64,000 bases of DNA from a virus: the IMG/VR virus record IMGVR_UViG_3300022173_000074, positions 1-64,000 of that record; one strand, 5' to 3'. The translations under genes were made by a program, and so were the position numbers. This document shows, one piece after another, positions 25,898 to 57,524 of this stretch; position 1 is the first letter of the stretch; every line of letters begins with the position of its first letter. Under the pieces are notes generated by a model. That model had not been told where the DNA came from. It worked only from the letters and a program-made list of their open reading frames with translations, and did no database searches.

Positions 25898-26176
25898 TTA
25901 GCCTGCGGAGTTGGAGTCAGTGCGGGCTTCCAGAGCCGCGTACTTCGTATACAGGTCGTCCAGTGCGGCGGCGACAGTGTCCGCGCCTGAGTTGGAATCG
26001 ACCGAGCCGTTATAAACGACTTCATCCGCAGTGATGCCGGTGCCGCCTTGCAGAGCTGCAATGGCGTTCTCAATCAGAACCATGTTCTTTTTGAAAGACT
26101 GCGCGAAGGCGACGATGCCCGTGGTGCGGAGCAAGAGGCCCAGGATCGGCGTTTTGTTGGTTTCACGTACAGACAT
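25898..26176 (-). CDS. hypothetical protein (one weakly hydrophobic segment; C-terminal DSNS)
   Basis: ORF before endolysin. Confidence 0.4.
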   Translation of the reverse strand: MSVRETNKTPILGLLLRTTGIVAFAQSFKKNMVLIENAIAALQGGTGITADEVVYNGSVDSNSGADTVAAALDDLYTKYAALEARTDSNSAG

Positions 26177-26270
26177 TTGACGTACTCCTATTCGGCGAGC
26201 TTTAGCGCCCGACCATTGACGATGATCGAGCTATAGACTCGCCGAATAGGATTTGCAAACCTAGATTGCC

Positions 26271-27815
26271 CTACCGGGCGGTGACGATGAATTGCATCCA
26301 GTTCTTTTGAATGCCCTTTGTCATATTCTTTGATCCGCCAGAGTGTTGCTGGAACTTCACCGTAACGTAATCGCCGGCGTCGATCTTGACACGTCCCGAA
26401 CAGTTGAAGGCGAACACCGTGTTGGCGGCGGCCGATGCTTCAGGGATCGGTTCGGCGATAGCCTTCCGCAGCACGTTGTTCACGTATATTTCGAACACCG
26501 TGAAGAAGTTATTCGCGCTGGTTGACATCCACACGAGGGCTGTGATGTCCACATAGCAATCGATGCCCGGTGAAATCTTGCCGTCGCTGGTGTTGTAGAT
26601 GCTGGCGCTATCCCACTCTTCGGCGTCATAGATCATAACAGTAGGTGTCGCCGAAGGGACCGAGATGTCGTTCGCCGACAGATAAACGGAGCCGGTAGCG
26701 TACTCGCCACCGCCGCCGCCAGTGGGCGGATCGACCCACTCTGTATCATAGTCTGTCCCGCTGTTTTTGGCGAGAAGCTGGCCGGTCGTTCCCGCCGCCG
26801 GAACGCCCACGCCATCGTCGCCGTCGACTCCGTTCGTTCCTTTGTCTCCGTAAGGGACCCAGGTTATTTTCACAGGGAGGTTGTTCGATAGTGCGCCGCC
26901 GCTGGCTAGAACGGCCACGTTGAACACGTCATACGATCCGCTGTCCGTCATCGTCGTGTGCCGTGCTATGATATAGTTGGCGGGGTTCGCCGGATCGAGA
27001 ATGAAGATTATTCCTTTGTTCGTGTTCGTGCTGTCGTCCCATGCATTGATGAAGCCCGCGAGCGAGCGTCCATCGTTGTCGGTTTCGTTGAAAGATATTT
27101 GCGTGATGGACGCGAACGTGCCGTTGTCCGCCGCAACTTTTCCTGTGCCCGGATTCCCTGGAGTCGTGGTCGTGTTCCACAGGTAGTTAAAGCCGAAGTC
27201 TAGGCCGTCTGAACCGTCAGCTCCATCGGAGCCGTTGCTTCCGTTCGTTCCTTTTTCAGCCATCAGCGACCAGTAGGTTGGCTCCGCGTTCGGAACTTTG
27301 TTCGTGCCAGCCTGGATCGAGATGTAAGCGTTGCCGTTGTAGAGCACGCCGTCACGAAGCGCGTACGCGGTGCCGGAGTTCCAAGCGCCGCGCCACAGCA
27401 TGCCCACAGGTCCGGTGTCGCCGGTCAGGCCGGTGTCGCCTTGCGGACCCGCAACGCCACCCGGAACCCATCCGCTCTCCGGCGTCCACCACAAGGATTT
27501 GCCGGCCGCGATTGCACCACGGAAAAGAACGCGCACGTTGGCGCCGTCAAGGATATAAACCTGGAAGGTTTGCTGGACAGAGTCCGCGTTGAAGATGTTC
27601 AGGAACTTGATCTGGTTCTGCGTAGTCCCGCCGCCCGGCACCGGGACGAGTTCGATGGTGGCGTCACCCGTGAACTCGCCGTTTACTTCGAGCGGAGCGA
27701 AGCCGTCGCTTCCGACATCGATAGCCACATAGCTGACCGAGAAGACCGGCGCAGTGGTGGTATGATCGGCGCCCATAACGGCGCGTAGGGATTTGTCAGT
27801 CGTGTCAAGAATCAT
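26271..27815 (-). CDS. tail fibre protein with collagen-like Gly-X-Y tract and CBM5/12-like repeats
   Basis: GPQGDTGLTGDTGPVGMLWRGAWNSGTAYALRDGVLYNGNAYISIQAGTN..P...YWSL. Confidence 0.6.
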   Translation of the reverse strand: MILDTTDKSLRAVMGADHTTTAPVFSVSYVAIDVGSDGFAPLEVNGEFTGDATIELVPVPGGGTTQNQIKFLNIFNADSVQQTFQVYILDGANVRVLFRGAIAAGKSLWWTPESGWVPGGVAGPQGDTGLTGDTGPVGMLWRGAWNSGTAYALRDGVLYNGNAYISIQAGTNKVPNAEPTYWSLMAEKGTNGSNGSDGADGSDGLDFGFNYLWNTTTTPGNPGTGKVAADNGTFASITQISFNETDNDGRSLAGFINAWDDSTNTNKGIIFILDPANPANYIIARHTTMTDSGSYDVFNVAVLASGGALSNNLPVKITWVPYGDKGTNGVDGDDGVGVPAAGTTGQLLAKNSGTDYDTEWVDPPTGGGGGEYATGSVYLSANDISVPSATPTVMIYDAEEWDSASIYNTSDGKISPGIDCYVDITALVWMSTSANNFFTVFEIYVNNVLRKAIAEPIPEASAAANTVFAFNCSGRVKIDAGDYVTVKFQQHSGGSKNMTKGIQKNWMQFIVTAR

Positions 27816-27816
27816 A

Positions 27817-29643
27817 TCAGAACCCCAAGCTCACGCGGATCATAACCTGCGCCATGTTAGTGCCTCCACCCCCGCCGCCAGAGTCACCCTTCTGAGCGAG
27901 TAGTTGCCAGAAAGAGCCGGAGGTCGGCGGGGAGTGGTTTGTGCCGTCTGCAATCGCGATCCAGGACGAGCCGCTGTGCGAAACGGCGTCCTTAATGACA
28001 TAAGCGGTCGCGGATGACCAGGGACCGCGCCAGACCATGCCTGGAGGGCCTTCAGGACCCGTCGCGCCGTCAGTACCGTCCACGCCATCGTCGCCATCCA
28101 CGCCCGCAGCCCCGGTCGCGCCTTTAGCTGCGACAAGCTCCCAGTACGTTGGCTCCGTCAGCGGGTCTTTGTTCGTGCTGTTCAGGATCGCAATGTACGT
28201 GCTGCCGCTGCGCGACACGACATCCGCGTTGTCTGCGTCCACCGTGTAAGCGGGGCCGCCTGACCATTCGCCTTGCCATACCATGCCTGCGCCGGGCGGG
28301 CCTTGGATTCCGTCCTCGCCCTGGATACCCTGGATGCCCTGGTCGCCGCGTTTGGCTACGAGTTCCCACCATGCGGTTTCAATCGAAGGATCGCGGCCTG
28401 AGTTCGCGTTTTGCTTCGAGATGTAAGACGAACCGCTTGGCGTCCAGAAGATCACGTCAAGTTCGTCGAAGGTTTCCGCGTCGAAAGTTCCGCCGCTGGT
28501 CCATGCACCTTTCCAGACGCCGATCAGTCCGGGGTCGCCCTGCGGGCCGGGAGGTCCGTCAGGTCCAGGCACAGTTGAGTCCGCGCCCGGATCGCCTTGC
28601 GGTCCAGGGTCGCCGTCATCGCCTTTGGCTCCGGTCGCGCCGGTGTCGCCTTTGTTGGCAAGCGCATTCCAGATACCCGGCGTTCCTGGGGCTTGGTTGA
28701 TGTTGTCCGCGACTGCTATGTAGGACCCGCCTTGATACGCGACTCCATCATCGACTTCGTAACTTGTTCCGCTGTCCCAGTTGCCTATCCAGTTCAATCC
28801 GCGAGGGCCGGTCGGTCCTGGATCACCTTCAGGGCCGGCCGGTCCTTCTGGACCTACGGGGCCGGCAGACATCAGCGACCAGTCAAACGGGTTTTCGTCT
28901 GGCTGGCTGTTGATGTTTTCGGTGATGCAGATGTAAGAGCTGCCGGTCGATGCGAGGTAGACTCCTTCGTTGATCGCATAAACAACGTCGTCTTCCCACT
29001 CGCCTTTCCAGACCAAACCGATGTCGCCGGTGTCGCCTTTCTCTGCGACTAGGTTCCAGTGTTCGATATACTCGTTCGGCGGCTCATTCGTGTTAGTGAA
29101 GATACAAATCCACGAGCGACCGAGGTAGCCCACCACGTCGGTTTCGCGATACTCGCGGTCATCTTCCCACGGTCCTTGCCAGACCATGCCTGGGTCTCCT
29201 TGATCGCCCTTCTCGCCGCCGACCGCGAACAGCGACCAGTCGGAAGGGTTCTCGTCTGGCTGATTGCCCAGGTTATCATCGCTCAAAGAAATGTATGCGT
29301 CTTTGTCGAAGCGAACCGCGTCGTTCTCCGCATAGTTCACCGCGCCCGACCACGTTCCGGTCCACACGATAGTCGTGCCGCCGCCTCCGCCGCCCGTGCT
29401 GAACGCGGACCACGTAGTCAGATCGCTGCCGAGAATCCAGATCAGTCCGTCGTCTTGCGTCACGACGATCATGCCCGCGCTTCGGCGCTTCACAGGGATC
29501 GCGTCACGCACCGCGCCGGATGCAACTTCGCGCCAACCGCCCTTGCCGTATTCAGCGAAGTGCGTGGCGTAGTCGTCGCTCGTGGTGAACGGAACGACCG
29601 GCGCTGCGATGTTAGTACCGAGGATGACTGCCATTAGGACCAC
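27817..29643 (-). CDS. collagen-like repeat tail fibre protein
   Basis: Multiple Gly-X-Y runs (GPVGPEGPAGPEGDPGPTGPRG; GDTGATGAKGDDGDPGPQGDPG) alternating with about 7 repeats of W.G.W....Y...D.V...G..YI....N..P...W.L.A. Confidence 0.7.
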   Translation of the reverse strand: MVLMAVILGTNIAAPVVPFTTSDDYATHFAEYGKGGWREVASGAVRDAIPVKRRSAGMIVVTQDDGLIWILGSDLTTWSAFSTGGGGGGTTIVWTGTWSGAVNYAENDAVRFDKDAYISLSDDNLGNQPDENPSDWSLFAVGGEKGDQGDPGMVWQGPWEDDREYRETDVVGYLGRSWICIFTNTNEPPNEYIEHWNLVAEKGDTGDIGLVWKGEWEDDVVYAINEGVYLASTGSSYICITENINSQPDENPFDWSLMSAGPVGPEGPAGPEGDPGPTGPRGLNWIGNWDSGTSYEVDDGVAYQGGSYIAVADNINQAPGTPGIWNALANKGDTGATGAKGDDGDPGPQGDPGADSTVPGPDGPPGPQGDPGLIGVWKGAWTSGGTFDAETFDELDVIFWTPSGSSYISKQNANSGRDPSIETAWWELVAKRGDQGIQGIQGEDGIQGPPGAGMVWQGEWSGGPAYTVDADNADVVSRSGSTYIAILNSTNKDPLTEPTYWELVAAKGATGAAGVDGDDGVDGTDGATGPEGPPGMVWRGPWSSATAYVIKDAVSHSGSSWIAIADGTNHSPPTSGSFWQLLAQKGDSGGGGGGTNMAQVMIRVSLGF

Positions 29644-30644
29644 ACAACCGCAATCGCGGCCCCCGTCTGAATTCCGTTAAACCGCGTGACGTAATAGTTT
29701 TCAGTGTGACCGCTTGCGTTCTGGAAAGAGATCACGTTCTGAGAGAAATCCGAGAACGCCAGGCCCCCGACCGTCACGGCAGACAGAACGCCGAAAGAAG
29801 TTGGATAGCAGAAGAACGGATACTTGCCGCCGGAGCAATCATAGGTCACGGCTTTATCGTTGTTCGATGCGAACTCTTGGTTCAACGCACGGATTTGAGA
29901 CGCGGTAAGAGACTCGTTTGCAGACGCTCCCCAATACCGTTTGCGCGCGAAGCTGAGAGACGTGCTGGCTCCGGTGTTGGTCGTGCCGTCGCTCGCGGTC
30001 AACGCCCACGTCTGGTTCGTCGTGAACGGGCCGAACGCGGTGACTGCGCGGTCCTCTGGATCGAGAGAGCCGATGCCGTTGCTGATCGATTGGCTGGTTA
30101 CGTCTTTGTTGTAGCCCCAGGTCAAGGCGACCGACGCAACGCTTTCGCCGATCTCGTGAACGCTGCCGCCGCTGAAGAACGTGACGCCTACCGCGACATA
30201 GAAGATGCGGTCCAGCGCTTCGCCGACGTTATCGATCGATGGGTAGAGGGCGGTCGTGTACGAGACGGCATACGCATCACTTGATCCGCCCATAGCGAAG
30301 AGGGACCAATCGCTTGGACTCGTGGATGGGTTGTTTCCTAAATTTGCGGACGTAAGCGAAATGTAGGAGTCTGATCCATAACGCACACCGTCGCCGGCTG
30401 AGTACGAAACCATGGAGGACCATTCGCCAGTCCAGTTCAGATCGCCCGCGCCGCCGCCGAAAGAGAGCGGGACCCAGGACGTAAGATCGTCGGCGAGCTG
30501 CCACGCAATATCGTCGTCTTGCGTGACTACCACCATTCCCGATGATCGTTGGTTCTGTGGGATCGCATCGCGAGCAGCCGCATCCGGCACTTCCCGCCAG
30601 CCGCCTTTGCCGCTCCCGCCGCCGAGTTCGAATGCCCGTCCCAT
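29634..30644 (-). CDS. tail fibre protein (shares N-terminal module and W.GEW..YS.GD.V.Y repeat with the two other fibres)
   Basis: N-terminus GGWREV.DAA.RDAIP..QRSSGM.VVTQDD shared with 27817..29643. Confidence 0.55.
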   Translation of the reverse strand: MGRAFELGGGSGKGGWREVPDAAARDAIPQNQRSSGMVVVTQDDDIAWQLADDLTSWVPLSFGGGAGDLNWTGEWSSMVSYSAGDGVRYGSDSYISLTSANLGNNPSTSPSDWSLFAMGGSSDAYAVSYTTALYPSIDNVGEALDRIFYVAVGVTFFSGGSVHEIGESVASVALTWGYNKDVTSQSISNGIGSLDPEDRAVTAFGPFTTNQTWALTASDGTTNTGASTSLSFARKRYWGASANESLTASQIRALNQEFASNNDKAVTYDCSGGKYPFFCYPTSFGVLSAVTVGGLAFSDFSQNVISFQNASGHTENYYVTRFNGIQTGAAIAVVWS

Positions 30645-30646
30645 GA

Positions 30647-31033
30647 TTACAACTTTCGTACAAAGATTCGGACCTTACCGCCTGGAAGGAAACAGTTGTA
30701 CGCGACTTGCGGTAGGCCGCGAGTCCGCACAGGAACAGCCGTGTTCTCGTCAGGGCGGCCGTTCTTGGTTTTAGTGAAGCCGATCTGAACGTCTTCATCC
30801 GTAATCAGGATGCACAGACGGTCGGTCATGCCGCCGATGTTCGATGTGATGTTCGGCTCCGGCGCCCAGCCATCTTCACTGGTGGACGAGTTGGAGTCTG
30901 ATATGAAGGCCTCGCCGTCATAAACGAATTCTGGATCGCCTATAAGCATGCCATCCTTGTGGCCGTTTTTATGCGAAACCAGGATAGTTATCATTTTTGG
31001 GGGCCTCCGAATGGTGAATGACCCCTGTAGCAC
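30647..31033 (-). CDS. hypothetical protein (contains DSNS)
   Basis: ORF. Confidence 0.4.
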   Translation of the reverse strand: MLQGSFTIRRPPKMITILVSHKNGHKDGMLIGDPEFVYDGEAFISDSNSSTSEDGWAPEPNITSNIGGMTDRLCILITDEDVQIGFTKTKNGRPDENTAVPVRTRGLPQVAYNCFLPGGKVRIFVRKL

Positions 31034-31039: not shown

Positions 31040-31696
31040 TTAGACTTGGAAAGCCTCCGGCAAATCGATTAGAGGGGCCATGGAGACGCCCGGCGAGGTC
31101 GCCCGGACTACCGGGACCCCGAGCCGGTCAAGCTCTATGATGGCCTTCCTGAGCGACGGAAGGAACCTATTCTCATAGTTTGCGGTCAAAGTTGGCCTCT
31201 TATGATCGTTATGCCACTGAGTTCGGCCATCTTTGGCCGGTTGCATGTCGATCCCGAAGAGGATGATCTTCGCGGCGCCCATGTGATAGGCGAGGTTGAT
31301 GGCCTGGGTCCCGCTATCCCAGCCGTGGAGCTTCTGCCGGTCGGTCGTGAACTTGTTCCGGTCCCGCCACATCCGTTTGATCCGAGGGTGATGGACGCTG
31401 GCGACATCGGAGGTCGCGGTGCAGATGATCCCCTCGAATTTTTCGAGGACATCCTTTCCGTTCCATTGCCACCATGCCGCATCGGCGAAGTGCAGGACTT
31501 GGGACCAAGGTGCGATCTTATAGCTGTTGTTCACAGCGATGCAGGCCTGGCCTTTCGTGACGCCGATGTCGAACTTCATCAGCGATGGTCCGCCGCCGAT
31601 AATGCAGACGGCCTTGCCTTCGAATATTCGCGGAACGTCCCAAGGCACGATGCCGCGTGGCTTGTGTGGGTTGTGGTTCTCTGGGACCCGTCTCAT
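31040..31696 (-). CDS. DUF115 / MptE-like (Maf-type) protein, putative glycosyltransferase
   Basis: AVCIIGGGPSL ... AKIILFGIDM; paralog of 58287..58907. Confidence 0.45.
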   Translation of the reverse strand: MRRVPENHNPHKPRGIVPWDVPRIFEGKAVCIIGGGPSLMKFDIGVTKGQACIAVNNSYKIAPWSQVLHFADAAWWQWNGKDVLEKFEGIICTATSDVASVHHPRIKRMWRDRNKFTTDRQKLHGWDSGTQAINLAYHMGAAKIILFGIDMQPAKDGRTQWHNDHKRPTLTANYENRFLPSLRKAIIELDRLGVPVVRATSPGVSMAPLIDLPEAFQV

Positions 31697-31738: not shown

Positions 31739-33808
31739 TCACAGGACGATTATGATGCCTCGCCGAGCGCCTACCGCTGGTGTCCCGCCGCCTTCCCCTG
31801 AGTAGAAGACGACGTTCCCGATTGCGCAAGACTGAACACCGCCGCCGTGTGTCGTGGCGACTTCCCACGCCGGATCGTCGCCAGCATCGGAAACATATTT
31901 ATAGGCCACATAGATCGCCATGTATCCCGCGACATCGCCTGCGTTGCCTTCTCGGATCAACGTCGTCCAGCCGGAGGTTGCGGTCGGGACAGTTGCGGAG
32001 TTACCGTCAAAGAAGAAGCCGAGCACAAGCTGATTGGTTTCCGTCGTCAGGATCGGGTCCGCGTCTGTGACATCTACGGCGCCCGCTCCCGTTGCATCGC
32101 GACGAAGCGAGTGCGCAGCGATGATGTCACCGATGCTATTGGAGTCTGCGTCTCCGACCAGCGTGTTCTCGAATTCGATTACGAACGCACGCCAGAAGCC
32201 GCCGTTGCCCGTTGTCAGTTCTGGGAGCGCCGCCGTGTCGCCCGGCTGAACCCAGCGGTACGCCGCTTTGAATTGCGGCTCCGTGGCCGTGTAGTTATCT
32301 ATCGCCGTCCACGCGCTTGTGTTCAGTGGATCGCCTACGAACGTGCTGAAGAACGCTATCAATAAGTTCCCGGCGACAGGCGCGGTGTCGAGTGTAACTA
32401 TCGCGTCATTGAAAGAACCCGACCCCTTCTTTGTTTGTTGGATCGAGAACACAGGGAAGTCGTTCGAAGCGCTGTTCGAATTAAGTCCATTGCTGTTGCT
32501 GTTCGAATCAAAGCCGCCAGAGTTGGAGTTGCTGTCGAAGCCGCCGCTGTTGCTGTTCGAATCAAAGCCGCCAGAGTTGGAGTTCGAATCAAATGACGGA
32601 TCGAGATCGACGTTCGAAAGCACGACGCCGAAGTGACGGGCGTTCGCGGTCGCGCCGAAAACGACTTTCATGTTGATGAAGTCGGTCGCGACTATTGGCG
32701 TGTAGATCGCGTGTTCGTTTACGTGTTTCGGCAATCCGGTCCAATTCTTCGTAAGCGAGCTATCCGCTCCGTTGACTCGCAGAGTTATCGTGCCTGTCGA
32801 AGAAGCGCTACTCTGGTAGAAGTATAGGTCTTTCGCGAAACAGTCGAAAGGCACACGGAGTCCGGTCCCTGTCTCAGAAGAATTCAGTACGTTGGCGGCT
32901 GATCCGCTGCCGAACGTACCGTACTGAGTGCCGCTTGCCGCGTTAGCTGTGCCGCCCGCCATAAGGGGGCTTTCGTCTGCGGTGCCCTGGAAGCGCACGT
33001 TGAAGCGGCGGATCGTAAGCGTGCCCGCGCCGGAGCCGGGGGCGACCTTGTATCCGACTTCGTCGTCCTGCGCGATGGTTGCGCTGTTCGTGGTGTCTTC
33101 GAAGAGGCCGGTAGCTCCCGCACCAATCGTAATATCCAGCGCAGTGTCCGATCCGTTCACGTTCAAATATACGTGAGAGTCGGTTCCGCGTCCGTTCGTG
33201 GTGACGTAAACTTGCAGCGAAGAGAACGTACCGGCGCACGGGACTTGCGGCTGGTATTCATCGGCTAGAGAGGTTGAGGAATTAAACTGAGAGTCGCCGC
33301 ACACAGGCAGGTAGGTCGCCGTGGTTCCTGTGCCGCTGTAGAGGAAGTTCCCTGTGCTGACCAGACCGAGGTATTGAACAGCATTACCAGAAGCCATCGT
33401 CTGTTGGCACACGATACCGGAGATGACTAGCGATGCTCCGTTGCCGCCAGCCAGCGTCCAAGATGCGCAGACGAGATCGCCGTCCGCGATGCTGTCGGTG
33501 TTCGATGCGTCCTCAAAGTATCCCGTTGCGCCAGCGCCTACCGTTACAGTCAGGTTTCCGTCCGCACCGTTCTTTCGGATTTTGAAAACAGAGCTGCCGG
33601 CGCGCGCGTTCGATATGACATTGACGCCAAGCTTAGACAGCGTTGACGCGCCACGGAACTTTACCTGCGCCAGGGCTTCGCTGGTGTTGGTCGTGTGGAT
33701 GTCGCAATTTATGAGCGGCCAGAAATCGCCGCTGGTGTTATTCGTAGCGAACGTCGATCCCGCATTGATCGGAGCTATGAGAAGGGAACTACCGGGTTGG
33801 AGTGCCAT
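31739..33808 (-). CDS. tail fibre/tail spike-like protein with internal DSNSNSGGF tandem repeats
   Basis: 689 aa, Gly/Thr/Ser-rich beta-type composition. Confidence 0.55.
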   Translation of the reverse strand: MALQPGSSLLIAPINAGSTFATNNTSGDFWPLINCDIHTTNTSEALAQVKFRGASTLSKLGVNVISNARAGSSVFKIRKNGADGNLTVTVGAGATGYFEDASNTDSIADGDLVCASWTLAGGNGASLVISGIVCQQTMASGNAVQYLGLVSTGNFLYSGTGTTATYLPVCGDSQFNSSTSLADEYQPQVPCAGTFSSLQVYVTTNGRGTDSHVYLNVNGSDTALDITIGAGATGLFEDTTNSATIAQDDEVGYKVAPGSGAGTLTIRRFNVRFQGTADESPLMAGGTANAASGTQYGTFGSGSAANVLNSSETGTGLRVPFDCFAKDLYFYQSSASSTGTITLRVNGADSSLTKNWTGLPKHVNEHAIYTPIVATDFINMKVVFGATANARHFGVVLSNVDLDPSFDSNSNSGGFDSNSNSGGFDSNSNSGGFDSNSNSNGLNSNSASNDFPVFSIQQTKKGSGSFNDAIVTLDTAPVAGNLLIAFFSTFVGDPLNTSAWTAIDNYTATEPQFKAAYRWVQPGDTAALPELTTGNGGFWRAFVIEFENTLVGDADSNSIGDIIAAHSLRRDATGAGAVDVTDADPILTTETNQLVLGFFFDGNSATVPTATSGWTTLIREGNAGDVAGYMAIYVAYKYVSDAGDDPAWEVATTHGGGVQSCAIGNVVFYSGEGGGTPAVGARRGIIIVL
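32465..32610. repeat. 27-bp tandem repeat x4-5 (encodes FDSNSNSGG on - strand)
   Basis: Read from sequence, inside CDS 31739..33808. Confidence 0.7.
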
Positions 33809-33974
33809 TACGATTGTGCTCCCTCACTGCGGCGAAGCGCAGCGTGTCGTTCGGATAATGATCGTGAAGCTCACAGATGTCTTCGAAGGAATGTTTGGTA
33901 TCCCAATCTGTGATGACAACGCATTCGCATGTGTCAGGACGCCAACGGACTAGTCTCTTAGGTTGGTCGGTCAT
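33789..33974 (-). CDS. small Cys-containing hypothetical protein
   Basis: 61-aa ORF between two tail genes. Confidence 0.3.
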   Translation of the reverse strand: MTDQPKRLVRWRPDTCECVVITDWDTKHSFEDICELHDHYPNDTLRFAAVREHNRNGTPTR

Positions 33975-49322: not shown

Positions 49323-49325
49323 CTC

Positions 49326-51516: not shown

Positions 51517-52818
51517 TTAGGCTTTTGCGCCGAAGCGCGCCGACGTGATGCGATCAACCCAAGCTTGGTCTTTTTGCTCTTGGGTCAGTTCTACGCCTTG
51601 GCCTTCGGAGCCAGCGGCGCCGGGACCGGCTTGGACGCCGTCAAGAGCCGCGACCATCGCGGGATTGCCAGCGTTCGTGGCGGGGGCTTTCGTTTCCTTC
51701 GGCATGGAGGCCAAGACTGCTTTCGCGTCTTCGACCGACATGCTGGAATTTTCAGCGAGAGCGGCGGCGGCGAGAGGGCGATCCTTCGCTTCGTCGCAAG
51801 CTTTGATGCCTTTGACGCGGGCGCGTTCGGCGGTCACTGCGGCGGAAGCTGCCGTAGTGGAAGCTTCGGTGCGGGCGGCGGCAACAGCGGCGTCCACGTC
51901 TTTTTGCTCAATAGCCATTAGATGATCCTTCTCTTCGTTGTCGCCAAATAGGCATGAACTAAAATCTGCCAGAGCCTCGTCTAGCGCTCCGACTTTATCC
52001 GCTAGACCATTTTCCAGCGCTTGTGAAGACCCAAACGTGAGGGCTTCCGTTTTACGCACGGCCTTCTCGTCCATCTTCCGGTTGCGGGCAACCGCCGCAC
52101 AAAAGACTCCGTACGTTTCGTCCAGGCGTTCTTGGATGCGATCCTTCGCTGCCGGTGACAGCGCTTGGAAGCCATTACCATCTACTTTGTGCTTGCCTGC
52201 GTAGATCAAAGTGACCGCAATACCCGCTTGTTCCAAGGCTTTTTCCTGGGAAACGTGCATCGTCATTACACCGATAGAGCCGACGCCGCCGGTCTTCGAC
52301 ATGGTGATCCGAGCGGCAGACGACGCCAGCGCGTAGGCTGCGGAGTAAGCGTGCTCGTGGGCGAAGGCCGCTATGGGCTTCTCGCTGCGGGCTGAAAAAA
52401 TTTTGTCGGCGAGTTCGAAACAACCTGCGACGTGGCCGCCGGGAGAGTCACAAACCAGCGCGATCCCGCGCACGTTGCCGTCATTCAGGCCGCGCTCCAT
52501 GCACTTCTGGATGTAGTAATAGCCGGTCGCGTACGAGCCGACTGCAAACGGGAAGTTGTTCAGAAGAACGCCTTTGACCGGGATTTGCAATATGCCGTCC
52601 TTGACGACATAGGGCTTGTACGAAGCCTGCCAGCTATCGGAAGCCGGCCAGAAATCGTCCTGCATAAAAGTGTCCGACGCCGCCATCATGTCGCCGGAGT
52701 GCTTGTGGTTCGCGAGCGCGCGAAGCGCCGTGGTGACACGATCCATGTTTTCAGGCGCGACCAGAACGGTGCCGCCATCTTGGCCGGCGATGAAGTTGGC
52801 GAGGATCGCGTCAAACAT
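51517..52818 (-). CDS. S49/ClpP-type prohead protease fused to scaffold domain
   Basis: IALVCDSPGGHVAGCFELADKI and GVMTMHVSQEKALE resemble SppA/ClpP-family phage protease; Ala-rich C-terminal coiled coil; start at MFDAIL one nt after portal stop. Confidence 0.65.
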   Translation of the reverse strand: MFDAILANFIAGQDGGTVLVAPENMDRVTTALRALANHKHSGDMMAASDTFMQDDFWPASDSWQASYKPYVVKDGILQIPVKGVLLNNFPFAVGSYATGYYYIQKCMERGLNDGNVRGIALVCDSPGGHVAGCFELADKIFSARSEKPIAAFAHEHAYSAAYALASSAARITMSKTGGVGSIGVMTMHVSQEKALEQAGIAVTLIYAGKHKVDGNGFQALSPAAKDRIQERLDETYGVFCAAVARNRKMDEKAVRKTEALTFGSSQALENGLADKVGALDEALADFSSCLFGDNEEKDHLMAIEQKDVDAAVAAARTEASTTAASAAVTAERARVKGIKACDEAKDRPLAAAALAENSSMSVEDAKAVLASMPKETKAPATNAGNPAMVAALDGVQAGPGAAGSEGQGVELTQEQKDQAWVDRITSARFGAKA

Positions 52819-52819
52819 C

Positions 52820-54511
52820 TTATTCGTCCTTCGGTTGTTTCGGGTCTTTGGCCTTGCCGGTCGTGGCATTGTCCATGTTCTTTTGCGCATTAGGATCGAT
52901 TGGAGTCAATCCCAGAGCGTCGATGGCCTTCTTCTCGCGAGCAAGCTGTTTCAACACCGCACGCCAGTCTTTTCCGAGCTTGCCGAGTTCGTCTTCCAGT
53001 GTGCCCAAGTTCTTTTCGACGCGCATGGCTGCAGCCTGCGTTTCTTTGAGTTCGTCGATCTGACCGCGTGACGCGCCGAGCCAATCGCATTTAGTGAAGG
53101 CATCTCGGTTCAGGCCTTCGTAGAAATCAGGGCGGCCTTTCATAGTTTCGAGCTGGCCTTTTATAATCATCTCTTCGAACCACAGACGATAGATGTGCGA
53201 GCCGAAACGATCCGCCACCATCTTCTTCCGCGAGAGCATGAACCGGCCCGTCTGGACGGTGCCCGCGCGCATGGAAGAGTAGTTCGCGTGCGAGTAATCG
53301 CGCGAAAGTTCTTCGTAGGAAACGCCGAGATCGGCAGCGATATAACGGATCAAAGACGCTTCGAACTCTGTGTTGATTCCGCCGCCCGCTCCGGCTGGCC
53401 GAAGCTGAAGCTTCTGGCCTGGGAACAGGTGCGGGATACGAACGCCGTTCATGGTCAGCGACTTCGCGCCGCCGGAATACTCGCCTACAGCGCCGAGATA
53501 GTCTTGGGCATACGAGATAAGGTCTTCGTCATCTCCGCCGCCGAGCGCGGCATAAGCCTGGCTTGGTAGATCAGCTTCGATAGACGCCGCGAAGGTCGCG
53601 TTGACGACCGCGTTCTCTAGCTGGATTTCGCGGAACTGTTTTGTCGTCTTCATTTCCTTCAAGGCATGCACGAGTTCGGAGATGCCTCGCGTCTGATCGA
53701 CGCGGGCTTGTTCGAAAAGGTGGATGACGCGCGTGCGGCCCGTGCGAAGCCGCGCGGGATACTCCGTCCATTTCCAGCTATCCGGGCCGGTCGAAAGATC
53801 GGACGGATGGCTGTTGCGAATGAAATAAGATTGCGGGGCACCGTACTTGTTCCGGCGCACACCGGCGCGGACGTTCTGATCGTTGACTTGCCACATCGGA
53901 TTACCGAGGCGCTCGCCTTCGATCATCTGAATGCAAGTGTTGTAGGGCCGCGAGTTGTCGCGGTCCCATTCAGCCGTCGCGAGGACTTCACCGCTGGCGA
54001 GGTAGACGCCCACCGCGAGACGGACAAGGCCGGTCAAGGTGTTCATGCGCGAAGCATCCGGCCAGTTGTCCAAGCTCTCAGCCCATAGGGTGAATTTGCT
54101 TTCGACTTCTTCCTGGAATTCCTCTTCCCATTTTTCGTCTTTGATGCCGAGCGCTTCGGTGTCGGGCTTCGCGTTCAGCAAGAACATGGCGCCGACGACA
54201 CCGTCACGGTGCAGGATTTCGCCCGCGTGCGCGTAGGCATCGTTGCGCATCATGTCGCGAGCGCGGCCTGTAGCGGCATCTCGATTATCGAGGATGTCCG
54301 CGTCAGCGGAGCGCAGCGGCGGATGCCACAGCGCTAGTTCGCGAGAGCGAAGAGACGCACCTTCGTACGGCTCTCCTACAATCGCCATATCGCCTCCCCG
54401 GCCAGCGCGAGAGGGACCGCGCGCCAGCCGGGGTTTACCAGCGTCAGCGGGTTCCGCGACACCGATAAGATCGTCCAAAGTGCGTTGACGTTGAACCTTC
54501 ATTTGTACCAA
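52820..54511 (-). CDS. portal protein
   Basis: 563 aa between gpW-like and protease. Confidence 0.65.
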   Translation of the reverse strand: MVQMKVQRQRTLDDLIGVAEPADAGKPRLARGPSRAGRGGDMAIVGEPYEGASLRSRELALWHPPLRSADADILDNRDAATGRARDMMRNDAYAHAGEILHRDGVVGAMFLLNAKPDTEALGIKDEKWEEEFQEEVESKFTLWAESLDNWPDASRMNTLTGLVRLAVGVYLASGEVLATAEWDRDNSRPYNTCIQMIEGERLGNPMWQVNDQNVRAGVRRNKYGAPQSYFIRNSHPSDLSTGPDSWKWTEYPARLRTGRTRVIHLFEQARVDQTRGISELVHALKEMKTTKQFREIQLENAVVNATFAASIEADLPSQAYAALGGGDDEDLISYAQDYLGAVGEYSGGAKSLTMNGVRIPHLFPGQKLQLRPAGAGGGINTEFEASLIRYIAADLGVSYEELSRDYSHANYSSMRAGTVQTGRFMLSRKKMVADRFGSHIYRLWFEEMIIKGQLETMKGRPDFYEGLNRDAFTKCDWLGASRGQIDELKETQAAAMRVEKNLGTLEDELGKLGKDWRAVLKQLAREKKAIDALGLTPIDPNAQKNMDNATTGKAKDPKQPKDE

Positions 54512-54717: not shown

Positions 54718-54790
54718 GGTTCAGGGTTCCCTCGCGGCGGCCGGATTAAGCCCCAGCATTAACCGAGGAATACTGAAAAGACAACGGGTC

Positions 54791-56911
54791 TTAGAGAAGG
54801 GACTCGCCCAGCTTCTTCATGTCGCTACGCACGCGGCGGCCGCCACGAGGCTTCGGGTCCTCGTTCTCGCCGATGACCAGGGAGTTCAAATCCCACACTT
54901 CGGCCCACACCGGCGGCTTCTCCCAGTTGATGTTTTCTGCCTTGATCGAGGCATCCAGGTTCAGGGCCATCGCGTAGTATAGCAAGTCGAACGCTTCGTT
55001 GCGGCGCGTGCCAATTTTCTCCCAGCCCTTCGGCGTGCGAACTTCCGAAGTGAGCTGCGTATAGAGCCACGTCGGCGCCCACTTCGGAAAATGGATCATG
55101 CCGCCATCTGCATCCGTACGACCGAGAAACGAGGACACTTGGTCTTTCATCAGATTCGAATTCAAGTGCGCTACCGGCACGTCGCCGCGCGCGCCGGAGT
55201 TGCGGTCCTTGCGTTGCGCATCTGGGAAGCGCTTCTGAAAACGTGGCGCGACTTTCGAAGGTTCACCCTTCACGAGTAGGAAGCGATGGTGGTGCTTCTC
55301 CGGCTGCGCGCGAAGCCAGCGGTAGAAGTTCAGCGCATTCGTGGTGACGCCTTCCTTACCACCAGAGTCACAGCAAACCATTTTGATCTGCATGCGCCGG
55401 CCGGAGAAGTCGTTTAACTCATACGTTTTGTCTATGACTTCCGGCACGAGCTGTTGCCAATCTTCCGCGTATGCGGCGGGGTCGATCAGTTGCAGATCGC
55501 CGCGCTCGTCTTCGCGAGTAGACTTACGAACCTTGAACATATCGATGTGCCAAATGTCTCCGGGTTGCTTCGGAGTGGCGCTGGCTCCATGCCCGTAGAC
55601 GTGGACCACGAAGGCGTTCTTTTGAACGTCTACGGCCGCCGTGAGGAAGCGCACACCGTCAGGTACGAGCGGAGCTTCAGCCGAACCGCCCCAGTCCTCC
55701 GCGCGATTTCGTAGCTCGTCAGGGAGGCGCGCGGAAGCGGCGGCTTTCGAGACGTATGTGTTTCCTTGCCGCGTGTTGACGGTCGTGCGCAACGGCCCTT
55801 CATCTCCGGTGCGATCATACGCTTCGTTCGCTTGCAGCCAATCCAGGACGATGTCCTTCCACGTTTGGAAGCCGGCCGCTACGCCTTTGCACCAGAAGCT
55901 CGCGATGTCCGAGCGGAAAGCTTCGCCGCTTACGCTTCCATCCCGCTCCCACTTCTGGCCGTCTTTGATCCATTTCCCCGCGACGTTCAGCTTGAACTTC
56001 AGGGAGTGGTTGATCGCGCCGTCACAGTGCGGGCAGTACATCTTAGCGCTTTCTGCGGCGAGGACGTGATCGCGCACGTCGGGCCAACGGAGAAGGCTGA
56101 AGTCTGGCTCGAAGGACTCCTTGCAGTGTGGGCAGCGCCAGTACCAACGGCGCCGGTCGCCACGGTTGTAGAGTTCAAGGATGCCCTTTGTCGGAGGCGC
56201 TTCATGCTCCGTTCCTTTGATCCACTGCGGGTTCTCCATATCGCCGGCCGGAGTCGACTCTGCGACCGTCATGGCGAAGCGCCCGAAGGTGGTGGTCCGC
56301 TTGCGAGCCAAATCGAAGGGCGAGCCTTCATTGTCGATGTCCGATGGAATCGCATCATAGTCGGTCAGCCATAGACGAGGGATCGGCTTGCCGCGAAGTT
56401 CGGATGCGGATGGATGGCTGAAGGTGAGATACATTCCGTTCTTGAAGCGCACGTCCAAGACGTTGCGTCCGTGCTTGCCCGGAAGCACGCGCTTGTCTAG
56501 CTCCGGCGTCGTGGCGAAGAGCTTCTCCATCCGGCGCTTCGAGTAGTCGCGCACGGTCGTCATTGTTGGTGCAATGAACATCATGTCGGCTGGATCGCAG
56601 ACGGCAGAATAAGTGACCCACGATCCGAAAGGCTCTGTCTTCCCCGACTGAACCGATCCGCAAAAAACCATTCCCTGATAGATGTCGCTCGTCAGAACAT
56701 CGCCCGGCTCGATCATGTATGGCGCGCGGCTGTTCTCGTATGGGCCTACCGAACCGCCGCCGAGGTTTTCGAGTCGACGATATTTTTCCGCCGCTTCAGG
56801 AACAGTCAGCCGGTCGGGCGGCCGGATCGCTTCCGCGATACTGGCTACAGCCTCTTCGAGATATTGGAATGAGGGCGGCTTAAGGCGCGCGAGACGTTTA
56901 GTCGTCGTCAT
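54791..56911 (-). CDS. terL: terminase large subunit (lambda gpA-like)
   Basis: 706 aa, Walker A GSVQSGKT, conserved position. Confidence 0.75.
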   Translation of the reverse strand: MTTTKRLARLKPPSFQYLEEAVASIAEAIRPPDRLTVPEAAEKYRRLENLGGGSVGPYENSRAPYMIEPGDVLTSDIYQGMVFCGSVQSGKTEPFGSWVTYSAVCDPADMMFIAPTMTTVRDYSKRRMEKLFATTPELDKRVLPGKHGRNVLDVRFKNGMYLTFSHPSASELRGKPIPRLWLTDYDAIPSDIDNEGSPFDLARKRTTTFGRFAMTVAESTPAGDMENPQWIKGTEHEAPPTKGILELYNRGDRRRWYWRCPHCKESFEPDFSLLRWPDVRDHVLAAESAKMYCPHCDGAINHSLKFKLNVAGKWIKDGQKWERDGSVSGEAFRSDIASFWCKGVAAGFQTWKDIVLDWLQANEAYDRTGDEGPLRTTVNTRQGNTYVSKAAASARLPDELRNRAEDWGGSAEAPLVPDGVRFLTAAVDVQKNAFVVHVYGHGASATPKQPGDIWHIDMFKVRKSTREDERGDLQLIDPAAYAEDWQQLVPEVIDKTYELNDFSGRRMQIKMVCCDSGGKEGVTTNALNFYRWLRAQPEKHHHRFLLVKGEPSKVAPRFQKRFPDAQRKDRNSGARGDVPVAHLNSNLMKDQVSSFLGRTDADGGMIHFPKWAPTWLYTQLTSEVRTPKGWEKIGTRRNEAFDLLYYAMALNLDASIKAENINWEKPPVWAEVWDLNSLVIGENEDPKPRGGRRVRSDMKKLGESLL

Positions 56912-57524
56912 CTTCTTCGCCTAGCAAATTAGGCGTCTGACCCAGCGCTGGCATTTCCACAAGCGCGCGTGCGATTTCATTCCGCAGATCATCGACCATT
57001 GATTGTAGCTCCCGGTATTGCTCCGGGGTAACTTCCGTCTTGCGTTCTAGCGCATCGATCCACGTCTGCATTACGCCGCGAATGGTTTTGGCTGTGTCGC
57101 CTAGAACCATAATCACGTCCTCTGTATGCCAGAGTTCGCCCGCTCGTTCTTTGTACTCTTGCTCCGAACGCTTCGCTTTCCAGTATTCAGATTTCAGGCG
57201 TGGCGGCAGCTCTTCCGGGTTCATGTTCCGCATATAATCTTCGATGTCGAAGCGCGGCTTCACGAGGAAAGACATGGCTTGTGCAAGATCGTAGAGCGCG
57301 ATGTTTCCCGCTTTCTTCTCCGCAATCGGACATTCTGCGAGCCGCTTTTTCACGGTGCGTTTATCCATACGGAGCGCGCCCGTAAGCCAGGCTTGGGTGA
57401 CGCCACGGCGTACCTGTGCCCAGTCGTCGGTCTTGGAGTCTATAGCCTTCGTCAGCGGTGCTTCCGAGTTGGAATCATCACCGCCTAGAAGGTCATCGAG
57501 AGAGCGCTTACGATCTTTAGCCAT
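56898..57524 (-). CDS. terS: terminase small subunit
   Basis: 208 aa with HTH-like region directly upstream of terL. Confidence 0.5.
   Translation of the reverse strand: MAKDRKRSLDDLLGGDDSNSEAPLTKAIDSKTDDWAQVRRGVTQAWLTGALRMDKRTVKKRLAECPIAEKKAGNIALYDLAQAMSFLVKPRFDIEDYMRNMNPEELPPRLKSEYWKAKRSEQEYKERAGELWHTEDVIMVLGDTAKTIRGVMQTWIDALERKTEVTPEQYRELQSMVDDLRNEIARALVEMPALGQTPNLLGEEDDDD

What the first reader, a model, noticed from the sequence alone, without database searches (positions are those of the whole stretch)
25898..57524. Tetrapeptide D-S-N-S (often (D/E)-D-S-N-S) recurs more than 20 times in about 15 virion and packaging proteins
DSNS occurs at the extreme C-termini of the capsid protein (…EEDSNSAGS) and of three distal tail proteins (…EEDSNS*, …AEDSNS*, …DDSNSGSTT*). 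It is near the N-terminus of terS (GGDDSNSEAP) and of a neck protein, inside the major tail protein, twice in the decoration-like protein (DDSNSGLVDSNSLAG) and three times in tail protein 33971..34690. It is amplified into FDSNSNSGG tandem repeats in fibre protein 31739..33808. By rough amino-acid frequencies a given tetrapeptide should occur well below once in this much protein. The motif is encoded by different codon sets (gac-tcc-aac-tc[a/g] in most copies, but gac-agc-aat-agc, gac-agc-aac-agc and gac-tct-aac-agc in others), so selection acts on the peptide, not on a DNA site. It is absent from the + strand early proteins, the tape measure protein, the portal, terL and the three fibre proteins. 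Placement at exposed termini and linkers of structural proteins, together with the glycosyltransferase/methyltransferase/Maf-like cluster in the same genome, suggests a sequon for a virion-protein post-translational modification such as O-glycosylation on Ser. Alternatives are a shared assembly-chaperone or protease recognition tag.
Basis: partly seen in the sequence, partly recalled or inferred. Interest (0 to 1): 0.9.

Follow-up and report, generated by a model that had tools for sequence, protein, structure and literature searches.

The report
DSNS tag on phage virion proteins
One clade of uncultured tailed phages has written the exact four-residue peptide Asp-Ser-Asn-Ser into surface loops and chain ends of most of its head and tail proteins. 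These phages also carry a small set of sugar-transferase and methyltransferase genes, so the peptide is most likely a built-in address label for coating the virus particle with sugars.

Summary
DSNS occurs 25 times in 14 minus-strand proteins (25898..57524), against 0.15 expected, and never in a real gene outside the virion/packaging module. All six Ser codons are used, so selection acts on the peptide.

The motif is strict: single-substitution variants sit at background, and D/E is favoured at -1. It lies in insertions or terminal extensions that DSNS-free homologues lack.

The whole clade shares it (MCP 47-100% identical, over 100 motif copies in 10 further loci). 25 of the 27 closest capsid proteins end in ...RARVV(E/Q)(E/D)DSNS(x0-3), while about 90 more distant ones end at RARVVA.

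Every clade member also carries a conserved enzyme set:
- two GT8-like GT-A glycosyltransferases (AF2 model plus Foldseek to glycogenin/LgtC, invariant DxD);
- two DUF115 Maf/sialyltransferase-like proteins;
- one or two SAM methyltransferases.

Relatives without these genes have no DSNS.

Best reading (about 0.6): DSNS is a sequon for phage-encoded cytoplasmic glycosylation of virion proteins. Caveats: motif and enzymes arose together once, so their co-occurrence is a single evolutionary event, and no chemistry has been shown. The nearest precedent is mycobacteriophage virion glycosylation, which as far as I recall has no defined short sequon.

The parts
56898..57524 (-). terS (small terminase); DSNS at residue 17 (57465..57476)
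   Evidence: phrog_141 E=1e-46; motif. This copy is absent from terS of all relatives.
51019..51477 (-). Head decoration protein (gpD/HDPD-like); DSNS at residues 86 and 93 (51211..51222, 51190..51201)
   Evidence: phrog_49. The double motif is an insertion present in all clade members and a gap in DSNS-free homologues.
49888..50973 (-). Major capsid protein (lambda gpE family); C-terminal extension EEDSNSAGS (motif 49900..49911)
   Evidence: PF03864. 25 of the 27 closest homologues carry (E/Q)(E/D)DSNS(x0-3) after RARVV (one of them is an N-terminally truncated record); about 90 more distant ones stop at RARVVA.
48924..49322 (-). Head-tail connector-region protein; DSNS at residue 31 (49221..49232)
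   Evidence: phrog_4858. The motif is conserved in 4 of 5 clade homologues and is a gap in DSNS-free ones.
47799..48341 (-). Tail terminator; DSNS at residue 27 (48252..48263)
   Evidence: phrog_5078. The motif is an insertion relative to L013/L015.
46875..47708 (-). Major tail protein with Ig-like domain; DSNS at residue 138 (47286..47297)
   Evidence: phrog_807. It lies in a variable, indel-rich linker with one or two DSNS in clade members.
41094..42146 (-). Distal tail protein; DSNS at residues 339 and 347, the second at the extreme C-terminus (41121..41132, 41097..41108)
   Evidence: phrog_687.
40066..41094 (-). Distal tail protein; DSNS at residues 71 and 339, the second at the extreme C-terminus (40873..40884, 40069..40080)
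   Evidence: phrog_687.
38297..40066 (-). Tail protein; DSNS at residues 302 and 582, C-terminal DDSNSGSTT (39152..39163, 38312..38323)
   Evidence: phrog_1082.
34709..36949 (-). Central tail/tip protein (gpJ-like); DSNS at residue 632 (35045..35056)
   Evidence: phrog_1101 E=4.5e-195.
33971..34690 (-). Tail fibre-base protein; DSNS at residues 65, 187 and 202 (34487..34498, 34121..34132, 34076..34087)
   Evidence: phrog_7049. Homologous regions in L027-L031 are also DSNS-rich.
31739..33808 (-). 689-aa fibre-like protein; FDSNSNSGG x4 (32498..32590) plus DSNS at residue 555 (32135..32146)
   Evidence: The 27-bp tandem repeat has only 69% DNA matches but an identical peptide.
30647..31033 (-). 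128-aa protein of unknown function; DSNS at residue 46 (30887..30898)
   Evidence: no family hit.
25898..26176 (-). 92-aa protein of unknown function; DSNS at residues 60 and 87 (25988..25999, 25907..25918)
   Evidence: no PHROG hit.
57542..58300 (-). GT8-like GT-A glycosyltransferase ('unk259'; 252 aa from the ATG used by P0121)
   Evidence: No Pfam or PHROG hit. Invariant D96-x-D98 and GSDQAW. AF2 pLDDT 94. Foldseek hits glycogenin, GlyE, LgtC and Skp1 alpha-GalT at E about 2e-9, TM 0.55-0.61. Present in all clade loci at 51-79% identity.
58287..58907 (-). DUF115 Maf/sialyltransferase-like protein 2
   Evidence: phrog_4603 E=1e-14. 26-31% identical over most of its length to Maf-like 1 (one 40% local match in L011). 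53-73% conserved in all clade loci.
58904..59476 (-). SAM methyltransferase 1 (present in every clade locus examined)
   Evidence: PF13489 E=1e-11; phrog_24759.
59470..60042 (-). SAM methyltransferase 2 (paralogue; missing in contig IMGVR_UViG_3300031991_000008)
   Evidence: PF13489 E=4e-7.
60009..60695 (-). Second GT8-like glycosyltransferase ('gt228')
   Evidence: Weak PF01501 hit (16.5 bits, below cut-off). phrog_28018 E=3e-53. Invariant FVDCDF (DxD) and HFTNGGPW. Homologues are annotated as nucleotide-diphospho-sugar transferase or galT-like in cultured phages.
31040..31696 (-). DUF115 Maf/sialyltransferase-like protein 1, placed among the tail fibre genes
   Evidence: PF01973 E=3e-7, 30.9 bits, below the 34.6 cut-off, but on record for 20 of its 25 database relatives including the exact protein. 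phrog_4603 E=3e-33. AF2 pLDDT 95.5. Foldseek hits MptE 8sd5, Maf 5mu5 (TMq 0.57), ST8SiaIII and Cst-II. Syntenic in all five clade tail loci while the neighbouring fibres differ.

Best explanation
(D/E)-D-S-N-S is a peptide-level tag that this phage clade has inserted into surface loops, linkers and chain ends of its head, neck, tail-tube and tail-tip proteins. It most likely works as the acceptor sequon of a phage-encoded, cytoplasmic protein-glycosylation pathway.

Proposed steps, all inferred:
1. One soluble transferase recognises the exposed tetrapeptide on folded or assembling virion proteins. It is either a GT8-like GT-A enzyme (57542..58300 or 60009..60695) or a minimal Maf-like DUF115 enzyme (58287..58907 or 31040..31696). 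It attaches the first sugar, most probably O-linked to one of the two Ser; Asn is not excluded.
2. The other transferases extend the glycan, using host nucleotide sugars (UDP-hexose for the GT8-like enzymes, a CMP-activated ulosonic or nonulosonic acid for the Maf/sialyltransferase-like ones).
3. One or two SAM methyltransferases cap it.

The result would be a glycan coat over the capsid (one site per MCP and two per decoration protein), the tail tube and the tail tip. Internal or transient proteins (portal, scaffold/protease, tape measure, chaperones, terL) would remain unmodified.

Shown: the motif, its strictness, its selection at peptide level, its insertion/extension placement, its clade-wide conservation, and the folds of the enzymes. 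Inferred: that the enzymes act on the motif, the chemistry, and the function of the coat.
For: Enrichment:
- 25 copies observed against 0.15 expected; maximum 3 in 2000 shuffles.
- 109 coding-strand copies across window and clade loci, using all six Ser codons.

Strictness:
- xSNS, DxNS, DSxS and DSNx variants sit at background, both in the window and in three other genomes.
- D/E occupies -1 in 12 of 25 copies.

Placement:
- The motif lies in insertions or terminal extensions absent from DSNS-free homologues: the decoration-protein insert, the tail-terminator insert and the MCP C-terminal extension.
- It is missing from internal or transient virion proteins.

Turnover:
- Positions are gained and lost within the clade. 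P0024 lost the MCP tag but keeps 7 copies elsewhere. The terS copy is unique to the window. Decayed forms SSNS and DNSNS occur.
- This argues for continuing selection.

Enzymes:
- GT8-like fold with an invariant DxD.
- A second GT8-like protein.
- Two DUF115 proteins with Maf/Cst-II/MptE fold similarity and invariant His residues.
- Methyltransferases.

Co-occurrence:
- All 10 clade loci with the enzymes are DSNS-rich.
- L013, L014, L015 (MCP 44-50% identical) and Klebsiella phage YMC16/01/N133 lack both the enzymes and the motif.

Functional linkage of the enzyme types:
- GT8-like, MptE-like and methyltransferase domains are fused in single proteins of uncultured phages.
- Similar cassettes sit inside virion modules of unrelated phages: L016, L017, PAJU2 gp10-12 and CcrColossus gp126-131.
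Against: - No chemical evidence of any modification.
- Tagged MCPs form one monophyletic clade. Motif and enzyme cluster therefore co-occur through a single evolutionary origin, and the correlation is not statistically independent.
- Other phages with related Maf-like or GT8-like genes show no DSNS and no other enriched tetrapeptide: 75 loci with 373,749 aa, plus PAJU2, CcrColossus, L016 and L017. The enzyme families do not by themselves imply a short sequon.
- No known bacterial glycosylation sequon matches DSNS.
- terS, a non-virion protein, carries one copy.
- The DUF115 fold is shared with pyrophosphokinases (MptE), so a sugar-transfer activity is not certain.
- No nucleotide-sugar synthesis genes were found among the 20 largest plus-strand ORFs scanned against Pfam; the smaller ORFs and the ~4.8 kb of the contig outside the window were not scanned. 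The pathway would therefore depend on an unknown host.
Confidence: 0.6

Rival explanations
1. DSNS is a docking or recognition tag for something other than a glycosyltransferase. Candidates are a clade-specific accessory, cement or chaperone protein that binds the peptide, or a different covalent modification made by the DUF115 (pyrophosphokinase-fold) or methyltransferase enzymes, such as phospho- or nucleotidyl-type modification of Ser or methylation of Asn.
For: A strictly invariant four-residue core is more typical of a binding epitope or of protease- or ligase-type recognition than of most bacterial O-glycosylation sites. The best PDB fold match of the DUF115 protein is MptE, a pyrophosphokinase. 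Several small clade proteins have no assigned function.
Against: Two clear GT-A glycosyltransferases with a DxD motif are conserved next to the other enzymes in every member. The DUF115 proteins also match Maf and sialyltransferases. No candidate binding protein was identified.
Confidence: 0.17
2. DSNS acts by itself as a structural or chemical element: a metal or water-binding turn, a spontaneously deamidating or cyclising Asn-Ser site giving cross-links or cleavage, or a hydrophilic spacer that improves solubility. The neighbouring enzyme cluster would then serve another purpose, such as DNA or host-envelope modification.
For: Asn-Ser is an intrinsically reactive dipeptide (general protein chemistry, my own knowledge). 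Motif and cluster share a single origin, so the link could be coincidental. The genome also carries DNA-modification genes.
Against: A self-acting element would not need all four residues invariant with no tolerated substitutions. It would also not be expected at the very last residues of three tail proteins and the MCP. GT8-like or Maf-like enzymes are not known DNA-modifying enzymes (my own knowledge). Related cassettes lie inside virion modules in unrelated phages.
Confidence: 0.1
3. DSNS is a cleavage or recognition site for the head-maturation protease, or a shared assembly-chaperone signal.
For: The motif is frequent near termini. An S49 protease is encoded at 51517..52890.
Against: The same S49 protease family is present in DSNS-free relatives L013-L015. 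Tail proteins are not substrates of head proteases. Cleavage at a motif that is itself the C-terminus, or at two sites in the middle of the decoration protein, would be pointless or destructive. The scaffold/protease, portal and tape measure lack the motif.
Confidence: 0.04
4. The pattern is a DNA-level signal (a site or repeat) or a compositional accident.
For: None beyond the shared GC-rich codon bias.
Against: All six Ser codons, both Asp codons and both Asn codons are used. The copies occur in all three minus-strand frames and only in real genes. Shuffles never exceed 3. The motif is conserved at 47% protein identity.
Confidence: 0.01

Closest known systems
Mycobacteriophage virion glycosylation (Che8, Corndog, Myrna; Freeman et al. 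2023, Cell Host Microbe 31:1216, cited in PMC11256854)
   Same: Phage-encoded glycosyltransferases, and in some phages methyltransferases, modify virion proteins in the cytoplasm. As I recall the paper, the targets are capsid and tail-tube subunits at C-terminal regions. A C-terminal extension of the capsid protein is the acceptor. The outcome is a glycan shield on the particle (PMC11256854).
   Different: No defined short sequon is described there, as far as I know. The hosts are actinobacteria. Only a few proteins are targeted. Here a strict tetrapeptide is spread over 14 proteins, including tail tip and fibre-base proteins. The enzymes include DUF115 Maf-like proteins, and the phage is a lambda-gpE/Casjensviridae-like siphophage of an unknown, probably Gram-negative host. 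The original paper could not be read here.
Maf (motility accessory factor) flagellin glycosyltransferases, e.g. Magnetospirillum Maf, PDB 5MU5
   Same: A DUF115/PF01973 catalytic domain with a sialyltransferase-like fold. In bacteria it adds CMP-activated nonulosonic acids O-linked to Ser/Thr on exposed surfaces of a self-assembling polymer, in the cytoplasm before assembly (my own knowledge).
   Different: The phage proteins are about 205-220 aa, the catalytic core only, without the N- and C-terminal domains of the ~600-aa Mafs (5mu5 has 632 residues, TMt 0.22). Maf has no known sequon. The substrate here would be virion proteins, not flagellin.
GT8 retaining glycosyltransferases acting on proteins (glycogenin; GlyE/GlyD of serine-rich-repeat adhesins; Skp1 alpha-galactosyltransferase)
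   Same: GT-A fold, a DxD motif and a cytoplasmic location. They act on, or extend glycans on, protein acceptors. These are the best fold matches of 57542..58300.
   Different: Sequence identity is only 10-16%. There is no Pfam PF01501 hit at threshold. Donor and acceptor are unknown.
Bacterial glycosylation sequons: PglB D/E-X-N-X-S/T; Bacteroidetes D-(S/T)-(A/I/L/V/M/T); NGT N-X-S/T
   Same: Short acidic-residue-containing acceptor motifs. An Asp lies two residues before the Asn (as for PglB) and directly before a Ser (as in Bacteroidetes).
   Different: Position +2 from the Asn is S/T in only 2 of 25 copies. The residue after D-S is always Asn, not hydrophobic. Those systems are periplasmic and lipid-linked (PglB, Bacteroidetes) or use a GT41 enzyme (NGT), none of which was seen in the window.
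Glycosyltransferase/Maf-like/methyltransferase cassettes in other phages (Caulobacter phage CcrColossus gp126-131; Pseudomonas phage PAJU2 gp10-12)
   Same: Homologous Maf-like and gt228-like proteins (25-39% identity) with a methyltransferase, placed inside or at the end of the virion module.
   Different: No DSNS or other tetrapeptide enrichment in their structural proteins. Their function is uncharacterised.

Membership tests
Phage-encoded virion protein glycosylation (mycobacteriophage type) | Phage genome encodes glycosyltransferases | tested here: met
   Two GT8-like GT-A proteins and two Maf/sialyltransferase-like proteins.
Phage-encoded virion protein glycosylation (mycobacteriophage type) | Glycans covalently attached to capsid and tail subunits | not testable with these tools
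   Needs mass spectrometry or glycostaining of virions.
Phage-encoded virion protein glycosylation (mycobacteriophage type) | Acceptor region is an exposed, often C-terminal extension of the structural protein | tested here: met
   The MCP C-terminal extension occurs only in the clade. Three tail proteins end in the motif. Loop insertions relative to homologues. Exposure itself is inferred.
Maf flagellin glycosyltransferases (DUF115/PF01973) | PF01973 domain at Pfam threshold | tested here: inconclusive
   The window protein 31040..31696 scores 30.9 bits against a cut-off of 34.6. PF01973 is on record for 20 of its 25 database relatives, including the exact protein P0156. 58287..58907 hits only phrog_4603.
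Maf flagellin glycosyltransferases (DUF115/PF01973) | Fold of the Maf central domain | tested here: met
   AF2 model with pLDDT 95.5. Foldseek hits 5mu5 at E=5.5e-5, TMq 0.57, and also MptE 8sd5, ST8SiaIII and Cst-II.
Maf flagellin glycosyltransferases (DUF115/PF01973) | About 600-aa three-domain architecture with flagellin-binding N- and C-terminal domains | tested here: not met
   The proteins are 206 and 218 aa. The match covers only about a fifth of 5mu5 (TMt 0.22).
Maf flagellin glycosyltransferases (DUF115/PF01973) | Transfers a CMP-activated nonulosonic acid to Ser/Thr | not testable with these tools
   Needs an enzymatic assay.
GT8 glycosyltransferases | GT-A fold similar to glycogenin/LgtC | tested here: met
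   Foldseek E about 2e-9, TM 0.55-0.61 for 57542..58300. Profile-to-PDB hits to Skp1 alpha-GalT and glycogenin at E 0.03-0.1.
GT8 glycosyltransferases | DxD metal/nucleotide-sugar motif | tested here: met
   D96 and D98 are invariant in 29 sequences. FVDCDF is invariant in the gt228 family.
GT8 glycosyltransferases | Pfam PF01501 at gathering threshold | tested here: not met
   No hit for 57542..58321. 16.5 bits against a 24.3 cut-off for 60009..60695.
PglB-type N-glycosylation sequon D/E-X-N-X-S/T | S/T at +2 from Asn | tested here: not met
   Only 2 of 25 copies have S/T after DSNS.
Bacteroidetes general O-glycosylation motif D-(S/T)-(A/I/L/V/M/T) | Hydrophobic or Thr residue after the modified Ser | tested here: not met
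   The residue after D-S is Asn in all copies by definition. DSxS variants with other residues are at background.

The most novel reading that the evidence does not exclude
DSNS is a minimal, portable four-residue sequon read by a small soluble phage enzyme, either a ~210-aa Maf-core or a ~250-aa GT8-like transferase. This would be the first strict short sequon for a cytoplasmic protein glycosylation system of bacteria or phages. The phage lineage would be using it to programme which virion surfaces get a methylated, possibly ulosonic-acid-containing, glycan coat. The tag could be appended to any protein as a glyco-engineering handle.
Probability: 0.4. Interest if true: 0.9.

Novelty: new variant of a known kind. 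Interest (0 to 1): 0.8.

Why it matters
Glycosylation of phage particles has been demonstrated only recently and only for mycobacteriophages. How the enzymes choose their targets there is, as far as I know, not understood.

Here the genome sequence alone appears to spell out the target code. A strict tetrapeptide has been added by evolution to loops and ends of 14 proteins and maintained across a clade whose capsid proteins have diverged to 47% identity.

If confirmed, this would:
1. extend virion glycosylation to a lambda/Casjens-like phage lineage;
2. assign a function to the minimal DUF115 and GT8-like cassettes, of which DUF115 relatives were found on 528 viral contigs and examples sit inside virion modules of several unrelated phages;
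3. provide a very short, transferable glycosylation tag together with small soluble enzymes, which is attractive for glyco-engineering and for shielding therapeutic phages;
4. give a sequence-only way to map which surfaces of a virion are solvent-exposed.

Tried and rejected
- **DNA-level motif:** rejected on codon usage, frame and strand.
- **Near-identical cultured phage:** none found (megablast). The closest cultured MCPs are about 42% identical Casjensviridae.
- **Other Maf-like-bearing phages using DSNS or another short sequon:** screened 75 distant loci, PAJU2, CcrColossus, and the distant GT8-like carriers L016-L023. None showed enrichment.
- **Host identification:** the genome-contig scan with the GT8-like profile found only 22-30% identical relatives in alpha- and gamma-proteobacterial MAGs or genomes, probably prophages, without DSNS. 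No tRNAs in the window. The host remains unknown.
- **Nucleotide-sugar biosynthesis genes on the plus strand:** none found among the 20 largest ORFs.
- **Tail-region relatives via the gpJ-like protein:** the scan found nothing; this was solved with the Maf-like alignment instead.
- **gt228 profile against PDB sequences:** no hits. hhalign of gt228 against unk259 aligned only the DxD segment (probability 1%), so the two GT8-like proteins are not close paralogues.
- **NCBIfam:** gave nothing useful.
- **Literature:** 'DSNS' with phage, DUF115 with phage, Maf/pseudaminic acid with virion, and glycan shield gave no prior description. The Freeman 2023 paper is not held.
- **Not done:** AF2 models of the motif-bearing proteins, because the structure jobs were exhausted. 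Exposure is therefore inferred from insertions and termini only.

Full report
**1. The observation**

Six-frame translation of the window gives 25 DSNS on the minus strand and one on the plus strand. The plus-strand hit, at 55153, lies in a frame antisense to terL.

All 25 minus-strand copies fall in 14 long ORFs between 25898 and 57524. The minus-strand proteome used for the test has 12,908 residues. Composition predicts 0.15 copies, and 2000 within-protein shuffles gave a mean of 0.16 and never more than 3. DSNS is the commonest tetrapeptide in that proteome, ahead of GGGG and AAAA.

The motif is encoded by GAC/GAT, then TCN/AGC, then AAC/AAT, then TCN/AGC/AGT. Over 109 coding-strand copies in the window and related loci, all six serine codons occur.

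The FDSNSNSGG x4 repeat in 31739..33808 is a 27-bp array with only 69% DNA matches but an identical peptide. A DNA-level explanation is therefore excluded.

**2. Anatomy of the motif**

The core is strict.
- In the window, xSNS, DxNS, DSxS and DSNx are almost entirely DSNS: 25 of 31, 25 of 29, 25 of 29 and 25 of 28.
- No single-substitution variant is enriched.
- Position -1 is D/E in 12 of 25 copies. Position +1 is small or acidic and never Pro, Lys or Arg.
- The same holds for 24 copies in three other genomes.

The carriers are terS, the gpD-like decoration protein, the lambda-gpE-type major capsid protein, a connector-region protein, the tail terminator, the major tail protein, five distal tail or tip proteins, a fibre-like protein and two small unknowns.

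The non-carriers are portal, S49 protease/scaffold, terL, gpW-like, Neck1, tape measure and its chaperone, the three collagen-like fibre proteins, the lysis genes, all enzymes and all plus-strand early genes.

**3. Relatives**

No cultured phage is close. The best cultured capsid matches are Casjensviridae-type phages at about 42% identity.

In the large protein collection, 25 of the 27 closest MCPs (47-100% identical) end in RARVV(E/Q)(E/D)DSNS followed by 0-3 residues; one of these has DSNT. About 90 more distant MCPs end at RARV(V/L)A. The tag is thus a clade-specific C-terminal addition.

An NJ tree with the tag removed shows the tagged MCPs as one clade. P0024 appears as a secondary loss.

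Ten further loci from the clade are all DSNS-rich on the coding strand only, with 4-14 copies per 8-21 kb. These loci are L001/L007/L029, L006/L027, L008, L010, L011, L028, L030 and L031.

Alignments show the motif sits in insertions or extensions that are gaps in DSNS-free homologues: the decoration-protein DSNSxxxDSNS insert, the tail-terminator insert and the MCP tail. Sites also turn over within the clade:
- the terS copy is unique to the window phage;
- P0024's phage lost the MCP tag but keeps seven other copies;
- decayed forms SSNS and DNSNS occur.

**4. The enzymes**

Between the SNF2 helicase and terS lie five genes.

*57542..58300* has no Pfam or PHROG hit.
- Its family, 26 clade members plus a few 25-31% relatives, has an invariant D-x-D and a GSDQAW motif.
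- A confident AF2 model (pLDDT 94) matches glycogenin, GlyE, LgtC and the Skp1 alpha-galactosyltransferase (Foldseek E about 2e-9, TM 0.55-0.61).
- A profile search gave weak hits to the same families.

*60009..60695* has a weak GT8 hit and belongs to phrog_28018. It has an invariant FVDCDF and HFTNGGPW.

*58904..59476 and 59470..60042* are Methyltransf_23 enzymes.

*58287..58907 and 31040..31696* (the latter among the fibre genes) are DUF115/MptE-like, phrog_4603 'alpha-2,3-sialyltransferase'.
- The AF2 model of the latter (pLDDT 95.5) matches MptE, the Maf glycosyltransferase 5mu5 (TMq 0.57), ST8SiaIII and Cst-II.
- Profile hits fall on the GxGPSL and G(I/M)D segments shared with MptE and Cst-II.

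All of these except the second methyltransferase are present, at 50-79% identity, in every clade locus that covers the region. The fibre-module Maf-like gene is syntenic in all five tail loci even though the flanking fibres differ.

No nucleotide-sugar synthesis genes were found among the 20 largest plus-strand ORFs, so donors would come from the host.

**5. Link between motif and enzymes**

Loci with related capsid modules but without the enzyme genes have no DSNS in any frame. These are L013, L014 and L015 (MCP 44-50% identical) and Klebsiella phage YMC16/01/N133.

The important caveat is that motif and cluster share one origin. This is one evolutionary event, not many independent correlations.

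Independent but indirect support comes from two points.
- GT8-like, MptE-like and methyltransferase domains are fused in single proteins of uncultured phages.
- Related cassettes sit inside virion modules of unrelated phages: L016, L017, PAJU2 gp10-12 and CcrColossus gp126-131.

None of those phages shows DSNS or any other enriched tetrapeptide. Neither do 75 further loci with distant Maf-like genes, totalling 373,749 aa with only 2 DSNS. The strict sequon is therefore peculiar to this clade.

**6. Interpretation**

The best-supported reading is that (D/E)DSNS is the acceptor tag of a phage-encoded cytoplasmic glycosylation pathway that coats exposed virion surfaces. Confidence is about 0.6.

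The initiating enzyme, the modified residue (Ser most likely, given the Maf and GT8 precedents and one DSNT variant), the sugars and the benefit are all inferred.

Rivals:
- a tag for a different modification or for a binding partner (about 0.17);
- a self-acting structural or chemical motif, with the cluster doing something else (about 0.1);
- a protease or chaperone signal (about 0.04);
- a DNA-level signal or chance (about 0.01).

The terS copy is not explained by a virion-coat function. It is lineage-specific and lies in an acidic N-terminal segment that varies in all relatives.

**7. Comparison with known systems**

The nearest precedent is mycobacteriophage virion glycosylation (Freeman et al. 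2023, cited in PMC11256854; the paper itself could not be read). It shares phage-encoded transferases and C-terminal acceptor regions on capsid and tail-tube proteins. To my knowledge it has no defined sequon and no Maf-like enzymes.

DSNS fails the PglB, NGT and Bacteroidetes sequon definitions. The DUF115 proteins have the Maf core fold but not the Maf architecture.

Literature searches found no description of this motif.

I classify it as a new variant of a known kind, with high interest pending chemistry.

Noticed in passing
window 12523..13521, 15999..16544, 16851..17657, 21758..22597 (+ strand): The early region encodes a C5-cytosine DNA methylase (PF00145), an MT-A70 adenine methylase, a MazG-like pyrophosphohydrolase and a weak dATP/dGTP diphosphohydrolase N-terminal domain (PF18909). 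Together these hint at DNA base modification or nucleotide-pool editing.
   Followed up: no
window 6762..7697 and 11038..12093 (+ strand): An SPFH/Band-7 family protein and a protein with a CBM_5_12 carbohydrate-binding module lie among the early genes.
   Followed up: no
window 56898..57524 (terS residue 17): The terS DSNS copy is unique to this phage. All relatives have other acidic residues at that spot. A tag on a non-virion protein is not explained by a virion-coat function.
   Followed up: partly
L008 (logan SRR30597343_23640) 10001..11077: One clade member (MCP P0024) has lost the capsid C-terminal DSNS tag. It keeps the enzyme cluster and seven DSNS copies in other structural proteins. 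It is a natural 'tag-deletion' variant.
   Followed up: partly
BFVD entries A0A6J7XC21 and A0A6J5PVH5 (uncultured Caudovirales): Proteins of about 690 aa combine a GT-A domain similar to 57542..58300 with an MptE-like (DUF115) annotation. Other hits are annotated as methyltransferase-domain proteins. This is a domain-fusion hint that these activities work together.
   Followed up: no
L024 (Caulobacter phage CcrColossus 98832..103385) and L026 (Pseudomonas phage PAJU2 7780..9723): Cultured phages carry Maf-like, nucleotide-sugar-transferase and methyltransferase cassettes at the end of, or inside, the virion module, with no enriched peptide motif. CcrColossus tail protein gp122 has a single EDSNSE. 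These are possible uncharacterised virion-glycosylation systems in tractable hosts.
   Followed up: partly
L016 8284..10399 and L017 2695..4034: Distant homologues (27-31%) of the GT8-like protein sit between head and tail genes of HK97-type phages. Their neighbours are GT2 and GT-D transferases in L016 and a Methyltransf_24 enzyme in L017.
   Followed up: partly
L010 1145..1498: An Endonuclease VII gene is inserted inside the enzyme cluster of one clade member, between the gene that precedes it (173 aa on record, no Pfam hit; the blast match to methyltransferase 2 falls in this reading frame) and methyltransferase 1.
   Followed up: no
window 27817..29643 and 26271..27815, 29634..30644: The three fibre proteins have collagen-like or tail-fibre repeat matches (phrog_5073, seven stretches) and completely lack DSNS, unlike the fibre-base proteins next to them. 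They have no counterparts in the five clade tail loci, so this looks like a swapped host-range module.
   Followed up: no
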